DNA of 24,022 bases from a virus. Lineage: Duplodnaviria; Caudoviricetes. The stretch spans positions 1 to 24,022 of IMG/VR virus record IMGVR_UViG_3300033067_000478. The stretch is one strand, 5' to 3'. The position numbers were made by a program, and so were the translations under genes. Of the stretch, positions 10,693 to 24,022 are shown piece by piece (within the stretch, counting starts at the first letter, position 1; each line of letters starts with the position of its first letter). The notes beneath the pieces are model-generated. The model was not told the origin of the DNA, searched no databases, and worked only from the letters and a program-made list of their open reading frames with translations.

Positions 10693-10700
10693 TACATTTG
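10693..10700 (+). promoter_or_regulatory. Bacteroidota -7 element (TACATTTG) upstream of the putative sRNA
   Basis: Matches TAnnTTTG. No ORF lies between it and the terminator 35 nt downstream. The -33 element is weak. Confidence 0.5.
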
Positions 10701-10704
10701 TAGT

Positions 10705-10760
10705 TGTTCTTGATTCATATTAGTTTTCAGAATTGGGAGGGCTTCGGCTCTCCCTTTTTT
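10705..10760 (+). ncRNA. Putative trans-acting antisense sRNA targeting start codons of replication genes
   Basis: 10714-10728 is the exact reverse complement of 19566-19580 (ERF start). 10704-10719 matches 23015-23030 (DnaB start) at 15/16. Bounded by a promoter-like box and an intrinsic terminator. Confidence 0.6.
10735..10760 (+). terminator. Intrinsic terminator
   Basis: GGGAGGGC-TTCG-GCTCTCCC (8-bp stem with one G-U, cUUCGg tetraloop) followed by TTTTTT. Confidence 0.9.
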
Positions 10761-10786
10761 GTTACATCTTTTTGACGTTGCTATTT
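10761..10786 (+). promoter_or_regulatory. Putative phage late promoter (GTTACA-N14-CTATTT)
   Basis: Immediately after a terminator, so a new promoter is needed. CTATTT lies 7 nt before ATG 10794. Confidence 0.55.
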
Positions 10787-19345: not shown

Positions 19346-19376
19346 TTTGCATTATGAAAGAATTGTTGTACTTTTG
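19346..19376 (+). promoter_or_regulatory. Bacteroidota sigma-70 promoter (TTTG-N19-TACTTTTG), early operon 1
   Basis: TTTG 19346-19349 and TACTTTTG 19369-19376; ATG 6 nt later. Confidence 0.8.
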
Positions 19377-19382
19377 TGAGGT

Positions 19383-19574
19383 ATGACAAACATAGAGCAA
19401 ATTCAAGAAGAGTTAAAAAAGAAACACTATCACGGTCTTCAAAAGACTATCCACGAGAGAACAGGTTTGTCTCTCCCTACTATTCGTAAGTATTTGAAAG
19501 GTGACGTATATCACCCTACCGCGGTCAAAGTATTCAAGACGGCAAAAGAAATCATTGAACGAATCGAAAACTAA
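19383..19574 (+). CDS. Small HTH DNA-binding protein (Cro-like)
   Basis: 63 aa with HTH pattern QKTIHERTGLSLPTIRKYLKG; first gene after the early promoter. Confidence 0.65.
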   Translation: MTNIEQIQEELKKKHYHGLQKTIHERTGLSLPTIRKYLKGDVYHPTAVKVFKTAKEIIERIEN

Positions 19575-19575
19575 T

Positions 19576-20109
19576 ATGAACAAAAGCGAATCAATCAAGA
19601 ACATTGGACTTGCTTTATGCAAGTTTCAAGCATCAATCGGCAAGGTGTCGAAAGAAGCAAACAACCCTTTTTTCAAATCTAAGTACGCGTCACTAGCGAA
19701 CATCTTAGACACTATTCAAAAACCATTGAGTGAGTGCGGTCTTGCGTTTGCACAACTCCCAGACGATGACGCTTTGACGACTATCTTAATTCATAGCGAG
19801 AGCGGTGAATGGATTGAAGCGTCGTACAAGATGCCTGTCGCAAAACAAAACGACCCTCAAGCGATGGGTTCTGCAATCACTTACGCACGACGCTACGCTC
19901 TAGGTGCAATCTTAGGTCTTAACATCGACGACGATGACGATGGAGAGAAAGCAATGGGGCGCACACCACAAAAAGAAACTCTCACACCTAAACACCCAAA
20001 CTGGCAACGTGCAGTAGAACACATTCAAAAAGGTGGTAAGATTAGCGACATAACTCAAAAGTACACATTGAGTGAAGTTGACTACAAATTGTTGTCTAGT
20101 GTCAAATGA
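19576..20109 (+). CDS. erf: ERF family single-strand annealing protein
   Basis: NPFFKSKYASL, IHSESGEW, DPQAMGSAITYARRYAL, DDDG. Start moved to ATG 19576. Confidence 0.9.
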   Translation: MNKSESIKNIGLALCKFQASIGKVSKEANNPFFKSKYASLANILDTIQKPLSECGLAFAQLPDDDALTTILIHSESGEWIEASYKMPVAKQNDPQAMGSAITYARRYALGAILGLNIDDDDDGEKAMGRTPQKETLTPKHPNWQRAVEHIQKGGKISDITQKYTLSEVDYKLLSSVK

Positions 20110-20786: not shown

Positions 20787-20817
20787 GTTGCATATGTCGG
20801 AAATAGTTGTACTTTTG
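20787..20817 (+). promoter_or_regulatory. Bacteroidota sigma-70 promoter (GTTG-N19-TACTTTTG), early operon 2
   Basis: GTTG 20787-20790 and TACTTTTG 20810-20817; shares GTTGTACTTTTG with the 19365-19376 promoter. Confidence 0.75.
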
Positions 20818-20821
20818 AAAC

Positions 20822-21010
20822 ATGATACAAACAAATATGAAAAACAACACACAGAACATCGCTCGTCAATTAGAAGTTTTAGAAATTGAATTGACAGGAA
20901 TTATCGCAATCACAAGAAAGCCAAATTTGCTTTGCCGTGAATTGTACGAAAACAGAATCGCTTTATTGCTTTCACGTAAAAATCAACTTCTTCAAACATT
21001 GGGGGCTTAA
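20822..21010 (+). CDS. Hypothetical protein
   Basis: 62 aa ORF after the promoter; ATG 20837 is an alternative start. Confidence 0.55.
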   Translation: MIQTNMKNNTQNIARQLEVLEIELTGIIAITRKPNLLCRELYENRIALLLSRKNQLLQTLGA

Positions 21011-21027
21011 TCGCCCCCACTATTTAT
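21000..21027 (+). terminator. GC-rich hairpin, weak terminator or mRNA-stabilising stem
   Basis: TGGGGGC-TTAATC-GCCCCCA followed by CTATTTAT (imperfect U tract); the stop codon lies in the loop. Confidence 0.5.
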
Positions 21028-22237: not shown

Positions 22238-22268
22238 TTTGCTATTTATCTACAAATCATTACTTTTG
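22238..22268 (+). promoter_or_regulatory. Bacteroidota sigma-70 promoter (TTTG-N19-TACTTTTG) of the replication operon
   Basis: TTTG 22238-22241 and TACTTTTG 22261-22268. Confidence 0.8.
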
Positions 22269-22273
22269 TAAAG

Positions 22274-22363
22274 TATTAGAGTTGTGTGCGAGACAACTAT
22301 CCAAAGACATTTGCCCTCGGCAAGTATCGAACTCGCACTTCGGTATTTGTACGAGGGTTTTTT
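22274..22363 (+). ncRNA. Structured leader RNA: two hairpins with complementary loops, ending in a terminator-like U tract
   Basis: AGTTGT/ACAACT stem with loop GTGCGAG; 18-bp stem 22314-22357 with loop CTCGCAC; TTTTTT at 22358-22363. Confidence 0.7.
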
Positions 22364-22368
22364 AATTT

Positions 22369-23019
22369 ATGAAAGAACAAAACGAAGAACTGGGAATGTT
22401 TGTACTATTCCCAACAAACTATCTAGAGCATATGACTCCAAGACAAGCAGTCTTAATGGGTATGTTGATAGGTATGTCAAAGAGAAGTGGATACGCCTAT
22501 CCATCGAATAAAACTATCGGGACTATTCTCAATATGACGACAATCACCGTACAAAGAGAATTGGCAATACTAGAAGAAAAGGGATTTTTGACACGTCAAC
22601 TTATACGAGATGACAACAACCAGGTAGTATCAAGACGGATATACCCTCACATCAAAACTGATACTACCCTCATATCAAATCTGATACCACCCTCATATCA
22701 GAATTGCAATAGTAATAAGGATAATACTATATGTATAAATGATAAATATACATTCGATTATTTTTGGGATTTATACAAAAAGAAAGGAGTCAAAGAAACT
22801 GCTAAAAAAGCATTTAAGAAATTGAATGACTCAGAAAAAGAATTACTTGTGACGTTTATACCAAAATACATAGAGCATCATACAAAAGCGGACAAGATAG
22901 ATTTCTTACCACACTTTTCGACTTTCTTAAATCAAAAGAGGTGGAATGATGAACTACCGTACAAAATAAAAGAAGTAGCACAAATTACACCGAATAAACC
23001 TAAACTTGCAACACTATGA
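22369..23019 (+). CDS. Phage replication initiator (N-terminal HTH, lambda O-like organisation)
   Basis: GYAYPSNKTIG...TVQRELAILEEKGFL HTH; C-terminal FDYFWDLY...AKKAF...PHFSTFLNQKRW; internal iterons; ATGA-coupled to DnaB. Confidence 0.8.
   Translation: MKEQNEELGMFVLFPTNYLEHMTPRQAVLMGMLIGMSKRSGYAYPSNKTIGTILNMTTITVQRELAILEEKGFLTRQLIRDDNNQVVSRRIYPHIKTDTTLISNLIPPSYQNCNSNKDNTICINDKYTFDYFWDLYKKKGVKETAKKAFKKLNDSEKELLVTFIPKYIEHHTKADKIDFLPHFSTFLNQKRWNDELPYKIKEVAQITPNKPKLATL
22642..22710 (+). repeat. Three 23-bp tandem repeats (iterons, probable replication origin)
   Basis: TACCCTCACATCAAAACTGATAC / TACCCTCATATCAAATCTGATAC / CACCCTCATATCAGAATTGCAAT, followed by an AT-rich tract. Confidence 0.8.
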
Positions 23020-24022
23020 ATCTAGAACAAATGATACTATCAAACTTGCTCTTCTACAATGATGCAAGACACTTCTTACCACAAATCAATAAGAATTGGT
23101 TTACTCAAGATTTATCTCGTAGAGTTGTAGACGCGATGACAGAACTCTACTACGAGAATCAACCTGTCGACCTTGTTACTTTATCAAAGTATTTCACACG
23201 AGTAGAAGTTCTTGAGATTATTCGTATTCAACAAGAAGCAAGTGGGATGTCAAATATCAAAGTACACTTGAAGACTCTTGAGTACGAGTATATAAAGAGA
23301 ACGCTTGTCGACAGAGTTACTAACTTAAACTTGACAAAAGACTTGAGCGAGATGGTCAAAGATATTCAAAACATTCTTGAAGAGACTACATTCTCAACTC
23401 ACAAAGAGCCAGACTCAATCGTCAAAGTCACAAACAAAGTCGTTGACCAAATCATAGACAATAGTCTCAAAGGTGGTGCGCTCACAGGTAAACAAACAGG
23501 ATGGAGATATCTTGACAAATACATCGGAGGTTACAACGAAGGTGATTTGATTGTAGTAGCAGGTAGACCTGGAATGGGAAAGACTGCAATCGCTCTCACG
23601 CTCACAAAAGACTTCGCGATGTATAATCAAAAAGCGTTGTTCTTATCGCTTGAGATGTCGAATGAGCAACTCGCAAAACGATACTTGTCGTTGATTGGCA
23701 ATATCGAAAATTGGAAGATTCGAAATGGTCGTCTTGAGCGCATTGAGATTGATAATGTCATCAACGTAGCAAACAATCAATCTATCGAGTTCTTCATAGA
23801 CGACGACGTTGATACATCACTTGCACAAATCAAAGCGAAAGCGAAGTTGCACAAATCTCGCAAAGGTCTAGACTTGCTTGTCATTGACTACATTCAATTA
23901 ATCAAAGGAACAAAAGCCAATCGTGAGCAGGAGATAGCAGAAATCTCACGAGGTTTGAAACTACTTGCAAAAGAGTTGAAAATCACGGTTATCGTTCTCG
24001 CGCAATTATCTCGTAAGAGCGA
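23016..24022 (+). CDS. dnaB: DnaB-like replicative helicase (3'-truncated by window)
   Basis: Not in ORF track. MNLEQMILSNLL...TGWRYLDKYIGGYNEGDLIVVAGRPGMGKT (Walker A), FLSLEMS, LLVIDYIQLI (Walker B), NREQEIAEISRGLKLLAKEL, LAQLSR. Confidence 0.95.
   Translation, partial: MNLEQMILSNLLFYNDARHFLPQINKNWFTQDLSRRVVDAMTELYYENQPVDLVTLSKYFTRVEVLEIIRIQQEASGMSNIKVHLKTLEYEYIKRTLVDRVTNLNLTKDLSEMVKDIQNILEETTFSTHKEPDSIVKVTNKVVDQIIDNSLKGGALTGKQTGWRYLDKYIGGYNEGDLIVVAGRPGMGKTAIALTLTKDFAMYNQKALFLSLEMSNEQLAKRYLSLIGNIENWKIRNGRLERIEIDNVINVANNQSIEFFIDDDVDTSLAQIKAKAKLHKSRKGLDLLVIDYIQLIKGTKANREQEIAEISRGLKLLAKELKITVIVLAQLSRKS

What the first reader, a model, noticed from the sequence alone, without database searches (positions are those of the whole stretch)
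22274..22363. Kissing-loop leader RNA/attenuator upstream of the replication initiator-helicase operon
Seen: between a consensus promoter and ATG 22369 lie hairpin 1 (AGTTGT 22280-22285 / ACAACT 22293-22298, loop GTGCGAG) and hairpin 2 (22314-22331 / 22339-22357, 18 bp, three G-U pairs, one bulged A, loop CTCGCAC), then six T. The two 7-nt loops are exact reverse complements, and the G-U pairs work only on the + strand RNA. Inference: a pseudoknotted cis-regulator (attenuator, riboswitch-like or protein-responsive) or a stand-alone ~90-nt RNA controlling replication gene expression. I cannot assign it to a known family. Together with the anti-AUG sRNA it suggests two-layer RNA control of replication.
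Basis: partly seen in the sequence, partly recalled or inferred. Interest (0 to 1): 0.75.

Follow-up and report, generated by a model that had tools for sequence, protein, structure and literature searches.

The report
Kissing-loop terminator gating phage replication genes
In front of the DNA-replication genes of this and well over a hundred other phage sequences, including six cultured phages of Flavobacteria, lies a ~90-base two-hairpin leader whose loop tips match letter for letter and change together, and that loop-to-loop pairing likely props open a predicted transcription-stop hairpin so that it would set how much replication initiator and helicase is made.

Summary
Observation confirmed base for base. 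A Bacteroidota-type promoter (22238-41/22261-68) precedes P1 (loop GUGCGAG), an 18-bp hairpin P2 (loop CUCGCAC), U6 and the rep-dnaB genes. The loop match is not chance. Patterns that fixed only the P2 frame found the perfect complement upstream in 57/58, 14/14 and 76/93 viral leaders, at near-fixed spacing (cross-controls 0.3% or less), with 27 different loop words. All six cultured Flavobacterium/Cellulophaga/Olleya phages checked carry it. An initiator-like gene is first or second downstream in 54 of 70 loci. No Rfam family matches.

The topology is that of the guanidine-IV riboswitch. A rough model says the linker is too short for kiss plus full terminator in 32 of 34 members (this window is borderline). 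Best reading (0.6): a self-contained kissing-loop antiterminator. No conserved antisense promoter, third site or linked Rep was found, and a lytic phage carries it. The input is unproven: kinetics, a protein, or its own terminated RNA. The anti-AUG sRNA I found targets ERF, not rep.

This scan noted such leaders before on other DNA. Fremin 2023 may list it anonymously. No RNA evidence was obtained.

The parts
22238..22241 (+). -33 element TTTG of a Bacteroidota-type promoter
   Evidence: sequence; consensus from PMC6847099 passages
22261..22268 (+). -7 element TACTTTTG; predicted +1 at 22273-22274
   Evidence: a TA..TT[TC]G box lies upstream in 55/58, 87/93 and 14/14 leaders found by P2-only patterns
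22280..22298 (+). P1 hairpin, 6 bp
   Evidence: 5 of 5 modelled pairs show changes on both sides, 95.5% of cells paired
22286..22292 (+). Loop L1 GUGCGAG (kissing partner)
22299..22313 (+). Single-stranded linker; L1-end to L2-start distance 39 nt (39 in 14/14 of this lineage, 42-44 in the sister lineage)
22310..22324 (+). Optional transient hairpin inside the P2 5' arm that would hide the terminator's CCC; accessory, not universal
   Evidence: -5.0 kcal/mol here; 23 of 41 subtype-A members vs 15.2 expected, 9 of 37 subtype-B vs 9.9 expected; appears in co-transcriptional folds
22314..22357 (+). P2, 18-bp terminator-type hairpin with basal CCC/GGG
   Evidence: 16 of 19 modelled pairs with changes on both sides
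22332..22338 (+). Loop L2 CUCGCAC, exact complement of L1 (7-bp duplex -10.5 kcal/mol)
22358..22363 (+). U6 tract, predicted termination site
   Evidence: U-run stays beside the hairpin in all 6 cultured phages whatever the distance to ATG
22369..23019 (+). Replication initiator, 216 aa (HTH_36; phrog_270)
22643..22706 (+). Three 18-nt direct repeats at 23-nt spacing inside rep, probable iterons of the origin
   Evidence: family D2; origin role inferred from the lambda O layout (recalled)
23016..24022 (+). DnaB-like replicative helicase, cut by the window end

Best explanation
This is a self-contained, roughly 90-nt leader of Bacteroidota phages, with a promoter box, a small hairpin P1 and a long hairpin P2 plus U-tract whose two loops are exactly complementary and covary, and the loop-loop kiss likely acts as an antiterminator: it would form while L2 is being transcribed, hold P2 from closing its basal CCC/GGG pairs, and so let RNA polymerase into the initiator-helicase genes. 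When the kiss does not form in time, P2 would zip fully and transcription would stop at U22358-63, releasing the short RNA. Shown: sequence, covariation, fixed spacing, gene context, modularity. Inferred: transcription, termination, that kiss means ON, and that the outcome is set mainly by folding kinetics against polymerase speed with no dedicated partner gene.
For: Blind covariation: 57/58, 14/14 and 76/93 perfect complements with patterns fixing only the P2 frame; cross-controls 8/2858, 0/48, 24/7422. Loop-blind promoter+terminator pattern: 92 of 112 unique viral hits have a 7-nt or longer match, against 4.3% cross-paired, 1.5% shuffled and 5 of 120 hits in cellular genomes. RNA strand: G-U 36 vs A-C 11; P2 more stable on + in 84 of 94. 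Context: initiator-like gene first in 31 and second in 23 of 70 loci; 6 of 6 cultured phages. Only 11 nt separate P2 from the AUG here, so rep transcripts must pass the terminator. Rough geometry: full P1 + kiss + full P2 needs more reach than the linker gives in 32 of 34 subtype-A members, median shortfall about 5 pairs. Precedent: in guanidine-IV the same kiss blocks the full terminator (PMC11611296, PMC7736828 passages). Self-contained: leader and first gene swap freely (19 pairs with leader at least 90% alike and unrelated gene 1; 47 pairs with gene 1 at least 85% alike and leader under 75%; pairs are not independent).
Against: No RNA end, read-through or probing data. At equilibrium P1+P2 (-30.9) beats the nested L1-L2 helix state (-17.6 to -18.4; pseudoknots cannot be scored), so the ON state must be kinetic. 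In this window the geometry is borderline (needs about 78 A, has 90 A at 6 A/nt), and the model is crude. Some U-tracts are weak (5 T of 9 in L012, L015, L016). 16 of 70 loci showed no initiator-like gene in the 1.2 kb held, and 7 of the reference initiators there were chosen by my judgement. A purely kinetic valve does not explain why such an elaborate cassette is kept instead of a weaker promoter.
Confidence: 0.6

Rival explanations
1. Same antiterminator, but switched in trans by its own terminated ~90-nt product: accumulated short RNAs would capture L1 or L2 of nascent leaders, block the cis kiss and shut rep-dnaB off after an early burst, and would also interfere with co-infecting phages that share the loop word (P4 CI-like timer and exclusion code).
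For: No separate partner was found: own loop word occurs only at the two loops in whole records G001 and G005; no antisense promoter or third site. Near-identical Reps carry different loop words. Some words change in bursts (4-6 loop changes with 1-2 elsewhere). G004 has two such leaders with different words. P4 precedent (PMC4825925 passage).
Against: Kissing positions change less per site than stems (0.041 vs about 0.08 in subtype A; 0.052 vs 0.074 in B), which is not what diversifying selection predicts. The same words recur in unlike leaders. The element is in a lytic phage (tooticki6-1; PMC7077304 passages), and 47 ORFs of complete relative G002 gave no integrase or repressor hit, so lysogenic immunity is not its general role. 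An intramolecular kiss could hide both loops in the free RNA.
Confidence: 0.18
2. A phage or host protein reads the kissing fold (as Rop/Rom does for ColE1 RNAI-RNAII, recalled) or the paused complex and tips termination.
For: Geometry is conserved more than sequence. One relative has a weak Q-like antiterminator hit (phrog_79, E 5.7e-6).
Against: Leader alleles do not travel with Rep or with the first gene, so sequence-specific Rep autoregulation is unlikely. No such hit among 47 G002 ORFs. No co-segregating gene was identified, but flanks were short and this was not tested genome-wide.
Confidence: 0.12
3. Small-molecule or ion riboswitch of the guanidine-IV type.
For: Same topology as guanidine-IV. 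Within subtype A, L1 positions 1-2 are nearly fixed (GU in 33 of 34).
Against: Guanidine-IV binding depends on highly conserved loop nucleotides and its genes are sugE-type transporters. Here 27 distinct loop words occur in the three blind sets, loop sizes differ and purine/pyrimidine polarity is reversed between subtypes; downstream genes are replication initiators.
Confidence: 0.06
4. The kiss works the other way or after transcription: it favours termination, or it tunes translation of rep, whose AUG lies about 12 nt after P2.
For: GGG-to-ATG distance is 12-13 nt in 31 elements; Bacteroidetes initiation is sensitive to structure at -20 to +20 (PMC6847099).
Against: In 25 elements the ATG is 22 nt or more away while the U-run stays on the hairpin (6.8 T of 9 vs 4.3 before ATG; partly biased by the search pattern); the cultured phages show the same. 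Geometry predicts conflict, not cooperation.
Confidence: 0.08

Closest known systems
Guanidine-IV (GGAM-1/mepA) riboswitch
   Same: P1 loop kisses the loop of an intrinsic terminator; the kiss is proposed to stretch the linker so the outer terminator pairs cannot form, giving read-through (PMC7736828 and PMC11611296, passages). Similar size.
   Different: No conserved ligand-pocket nucleotides across subtypes; loop words vary; in Bacteroidota phages before replication initiators, not before guanidine exporters; no ligand known.
Satellite phage P4 immunity (CI RNA with seqA/seqC)
   Same: Leader of a phage replication operon controlled by premature termination through complementary RNA segments (PMC4825925 passage).
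   Different: Only two complementary sites, no seqC-like third site; no sign of a processed internal RNA; found in lytic phage and in a complete relative without integrase or repressor hits.
I-complex plasmid rep control (ColIb-P9 pseudoknot with antisense RNAI)
   Same: RNA structure in a rep leader; possible incompatibility-like code (PMC10286972 passages; pseudoknot detail from a reference title there and recall).
   Different: No conserved antisense promoter (0 of 93 with both boxes), no conserved leader peptide seen, no Shine-Dalgarno; the kiss targets a terminator loop.
Lambda tR1/N and HK022 put (recalled, not checked in a paper)
   Same: A termination checkpoint in front of initiator (with internal iterons) and helicase genes; put is a factor-independent two-hairpin antiterminator.
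   Different: Here the terminator is part of the structure and the loops pair with each other; no nut or N-like partner identified.
Rfam 23S-methyl motif (RF01065)
   Same: Two hairpins, the second a terminator; best weak Rfam hit in one homolog (27.3 bits).
   Different: Far below the gathering score of 50; Lactobacillales, before rRNA methyltransferases, no kissing loop described (PMC1950547 passage).
Anonymous candidates DNAVirus_1270 and DNAVirus_187 of Fremin et al. 2023 (PMC10690425)
   Same: 80 nt/115 sequences and 49 nt/122 sequences, mostly freshwater phages, directly before Phg_2220_C/HTH_36 or DUF1376/DUF4373 genes (supplement rows); may be this family or part of it.
   Different: Listed as not terminators; 'kissing' does not occur in the main text; alignments and coordinates could not be read, so identity is untested.

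Membership tests
Guanidine-IV riboswitch | P1 loop pairs with the terminator loop | tested here: met
Guanidine-IV riboswitch | Highly conserved loop nucleotides forming a pocket | tested here: not met
   27 distinct loop words in three blind sets, different loop sizes, reversed polarity
Guanidine-IV riboswitch | Upstream of guanidine export/metabolism genes | tested here: not met
Guanidine-IV riboswitch | Ligand-dependent read-through | not testable with these tools
   needs probing and transcription assays
Any Rfam 15 family | Score at or above gathering threshold | tested here: not met
   0 hits in the window; only weak hits at E up to 10 and in 20 homolog loci; whether Rfam 15 holds a guanidine-IV model was not checked
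P4 CI / seqA-seqB-seqC immunity | Third complementary site downstream | tested here: not met
   a seqC-like site repeats the L1 word: own 6-mer within 600 nt downstream in 10 of 94 vs 4.8% for other words, a small excess only; its complement 6 of 94 vs 5.1%; extra copies in long loci 4 vs 8.8 expected
P4 CI / seqA-seqB-seqC immunity | Temperate element with an immunity state | tested here: not met
   tooticki6-1 described as lytic; no integrase or repressor hit in 47 of 61 listed G002 ORFs; 0 of 151 genomes of the order of a Flavobacterium genome match subtype-A model R1 (strict filters, no positive control)
P4 CI / seqA-seqB-seqC immunity | Short RNA acts in trans on nascent transcripts | not testable with these tools
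   needs trans-addition assays
Antisense-controlled plasmid rep leaders (I-complex, pT181-like) | Conserved counter-transcript promoter across the leader | tested here: not met
   0 of 93 with both boxes; -7 box alone 24 of 93, scattered, vs 11 of 68 background
Intrinsic terminator | GC-closed hairpin followed by a U-run | tested here: met
   the simple scanner did not list it
Intrinsic terminator | RNA 3' ends at the U-run | tested here: inconclusive
   only assembled contigs were available; RNA runs do not cover the leader
Fremin 2023 DNAVirus_1270/187 | Same sequences or model | not testable with these tools
   alignment and bed files too large to read

The most novel reading that the evidence does not exclude
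A widespread, protein-free and ligand-free phage replication switch: a kissing-loop antiterminator whose own terminated 90-nt product jams the kiss in trans, giving lytic Bacteroidota phages a self-timed burst of initiator and helicase and a swappable 6-8-letter code for interfering with co-infecting phages of the same type.
Probability: 0.18. Interest if true: 0.88.

Novelty: new variant of a known kind. Interest (0 to 1): 0.68.

Why it matters
It is an uncatalogued, strongly covarying RNA family sitting at the entry to the replication genes across many Flavobacteria-type phages, including cultured ones. It shows the unusual guanidine-IV switching architecture with no sign of a ligand pocket, so it would separate that mechanism from ligand sensing and allow a direct test of kiss-versus-terminator competition. 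If trans action holds, it is a new form of RNA timing and exclusion in lytic phages. Many natural loop words in one scaffold would also be orthogonal regulatory parts for Bacteroidota genetics. Tempering this: function is untested, the scan has flagged such leaders several times, and a 2023 catalogue may hold it unnamed.

Tried and rejected
Rfam: no family.

RNA evidence: 17 runs listed, 3 on record as RNA, all as contigs. X9, X11 and X12 gave only 1-2 short pieces each, none over the leader; one search confirms sequence only. Neither shows expression or ends.

Cultured relatives by the window's own Rep: only weak Firmicutes-phage hits. I reached cultured phages through two other initiators that follow the same leader and checked 6 records chosen as one per group.

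Host chromosomes: model R1 (subtype A) found 0 of 3 and 0 of 151 genomes and misses most subtype-B and cultured examples, so this is weak. The pattern scan of genomes gave 3 clear members among 120 (L233, L256, L289), two in bins of unrelated taxa, probably mis-binned phage contigs (inference).

Rejected: antisense promoter and third site; the 5'-arm hairpin as a universal antiterminator; faster loop evolution; the anti-AUG sRNA as a rep regulator; a DNA-level cruciform (loops only, G-U bias).

Alignment A2 misregistered the loops and was dropped. A3 was chosen for perfect loops, so its 100% kiss pairing is circular and the blind sets are used instead. One hit (L026 minus strand) was dropped as spurious.

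Literature: ten searches found no description of this element; subscription journals are mostly not covered.

Full report
1. Observation. P1 is AGTTGT/ACAACT around loop GTGCGAG (22286-22292). P2 spans 22314-22357 with 18 bp, three G-U pairs, bulged A22351 and loop CTCGCAC (22332-22338). Six T follow, and the ATG is at 22369. The fold is -30.9 kcal/mol, z -4.79. The promoter is the Bacteroidetes type, TTTG 22238-41 and TACTTTTG 22261-68; the sigma70 scan misses it. PMC6847099 (passages) gives the consensus and a 4-5 nt gap to +1, so the RNA would run from about 22273 to 22363. Downstream are a 216-aa initiator (HTH_36, phrog_270) with three internal repeats at 22643-22706 and a DnaB helicase. 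Contigs from other runs cover the leader with 0-3 differences in their main pieces.

2. Is the loop match more than chance? Yes, on three tests. (a) Rep homologs (79 loci): nearly all close relatives with enough upstream DNA, and several distant ones, carry the same layout with different matching loop pairs. (b) A pattern fixing promoter, CCC/GGG and U-run but not the loops gave 120 viral loci (about 730 estimated). Of 112 unique leaders, 101 have at least 6 and 92 at least 7 complementary bases between the P2 apex and the upstream leader; cross-pairing gives 10.6% and 4.3%, shuffling 6.0% and 1.5%. The same pattern in cellular genomes gives 12 and 5 of 120. (c) Three patterns fixing only the P2 frame: the full complement of the loop lay upstream in 57 of 58, 14 of 14 (the window's lineage, always 39 nt away) and 76 of 93 unique leaders; 16 of the 17 misses in the last set match 7 of 8. 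Cross-controls were 8/2858, 0/48 and 24/7422, and 27 distinct loop words occur. On a 31-sequence alignment, 27 of 31 pairs show changes on both sides and no shuffle of 500 reaches that; that set was chosen for perfect loops, so only its stem figures are independent. G-U pairs outnumber A-C 36 to 11 and P2 is more stable on the + strand in 84 of 94, so the structure is RNA of the + strand.

3. Range and context. There are two subtypes: A (6-7-nt loops, this window) and B (8-base kiss, longer loops, reversed purine polarity). An initiator-like gene is first in 31 and second in 23 of 70 loci with 1.2 kb held; Pfam first genes DUF6291, 2 HTH_36 and 1 DUF1376 of 68 scanned. Seven further reference initiators were my choice, one backed. 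All six cultured phages checked have it before the replication genes: Flavobacterium tooticki6-1, lillamy9-1 and elemoA, Cellulophaga phi19:3 and phi18:3, Olleya Harreka_1 (loop matches of 6-8 bases, two read by eye from the printed sequence). Tooticki6-1 is described as lytic (PMC7077304 passages). In the complete relative G002, 47 of 61 listed ORFs gave no integrase or repressor hit, nor did 25 of 65 in G001. Leaders and first genes are shuffled independently: 19 pairs share a leader but not the gene, 47 share the gene but not the leader (pairs not independent).

4. Mechanism. Only 11 nt separate P2 from the AUG, so every rep transcript must pass the hairpin. The U-run stays with the hairpin when the AUG is far, which fits a terminator. 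L2 emerges before the P2 3' arm and can pair with L1 first (nested folds only). A rough length model says full P1, kiss and full P2 cannot coexist in 32 of 34 subtype-A members, falling short by about 5 pairs, which are the basal terminator pairs; this window and L142 are borderline. This is the mechanism proposed for the guanidine-IV riboswitch, where the kiss stretches the linker so the outer terminator pairs fail (PMC7736828 and PMC11611296, passages). I therefore commit to kiss = read-through (0.6). At equilibrium the terminator wins, so the ON state would be kinetic. A small hairpin in the P2 5' arm (22310-22324) could help here but is not general.

5. What flips it? Not shown. A ligand is unlikely, since guanidine-IV depends on conserved loop bases and these vary. 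No conserved antisense promoter exists (0 of 93 with both boxes). A third site has little support: the loop word recurs downstream in 10 of 94 against 4.8% for other words, but long loci hold fewer extra copies than expected, and the word occurs only twice in G001 and G005. Rep autoregulation is unlikely given the shuffling. The boldest reading is P4-like trans action by the terminated RNA itself (PMC4825925 passage). For it: burst-like loop changes, different words on near-identical Reps, and two differently coded leaders in G004. Against it: kissing positions change less per site than stems, and lysogenic immunity does not fit lytic carriers. I give it 0.18.

6. The second layer. The anti-AUG sRNA candidate I found (promoter 10693, terminator near 10735-10763) matches the ERF start over 15 nt (-23.5 kcal/mol), not rep (-10.7).

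7. Known or new. No Rfam family matches the window or 20 homolog loci. Ten literature searches found no description; I read passages of PMC5737381 and PMC1950547 without finding it. Fremin 2023 (PMC10690425) lists anonymous freshwater-phage candidates before the same gene families (DNAVirus_1270, DNAVirus_187); its alignment and coordinate archives could not be read, so they may be this family. This scan's earlier notes describe similar leaders in other genomes, seven judging them real and one chance; these are AI notes, not support. It works like guanidine-IV but fails that family's defining features, so I class it as a new variant of a known kind.

8. Limits. No transcript ends or expression were seen: all runs were contigs and the RNA runs miss the leader. 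Counts are of sequences, not independent events. The geometry model is crude. Lambda, HK022 put, Rop and pRNA comparisons are recalled. Verdict: real, widespread, testable in cultured phages, mechanism inferred; interest 0.68.

Noticed in passing
window 10693-10763 (+): Promoter box TACATTTG, about 58-nt RNA and strong terminator right after a structural gene; 15-nt perfect complement to the ERF recombinase start at 19566-19580 plus an 11-nt match at 19593. Candidate late-made antisense repressor of the early recombination genes.
   Followed up: partly
G001:C1:5592 (minus); same layout in L008-L013, L015, L028, L036: Divergent promoter back to back with the leader promoter drives a ~57-nt RNA with terminator, complementary to several GATATGACAA start regions in the same genome (3713, 4971, 7986, 14488). 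Possible multi-target anti-AUG sRNA; absent at that place in the window.
   Followed up: partly
window 22643-22706 and the AT-rich stretch after it: Three 18-nt repeats at 23-nt spacing inside rep, probable origin; read-through of the leader would also transcribe it.
   Followed up: no
G004:C1:9025 and 12585 (+): Two kissing-loop leaders 3.5 kb apart in one phage record with different loop words (ATGCGAC, CTGGCA).
   Followed up: partly
G003:C1:861 and 59620: Two subtype-A leaders before two unrelated initiators in a 62-kb record; may be two ~31-kb phages joined.
   Followed up: no
window 19346-19376, 20810-20817 (+); 20088-20056 (-): Further Bacteroidota-type promoters: before the 63-aa ORF at 19383, before ORF 20822, and a full antisense promoter at the end of ERF.
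   Followed up: no
window 21000-21019: GC-rich hairpin between ORFs 20822 and 21034, resembling the terminator hairpins of the divergent sRNAs in relatives.
   Followed up: no
L333:9044-9559: Weak hit to a Q-like antitermination protein family (phrog_79, E 5.7e-6) downstream of the replication genes in G001.
   Followed up: no
L088, L096, L100, L105, L114, L126, L130, L133, L136, L138, L140, L145, L147, L154; cultured L320, L321, L324, L325: Small unrelated ORFs of 55-75 aa are often inserted between the leader and the initiator, as if the spot were a moron hot spot.
   Followed up: no
L115: Subtype-B leader in an IMG/VR record whose id style suggests an isolate genome, so some carriers may be prophages (inference from the id).
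   Followed up: no
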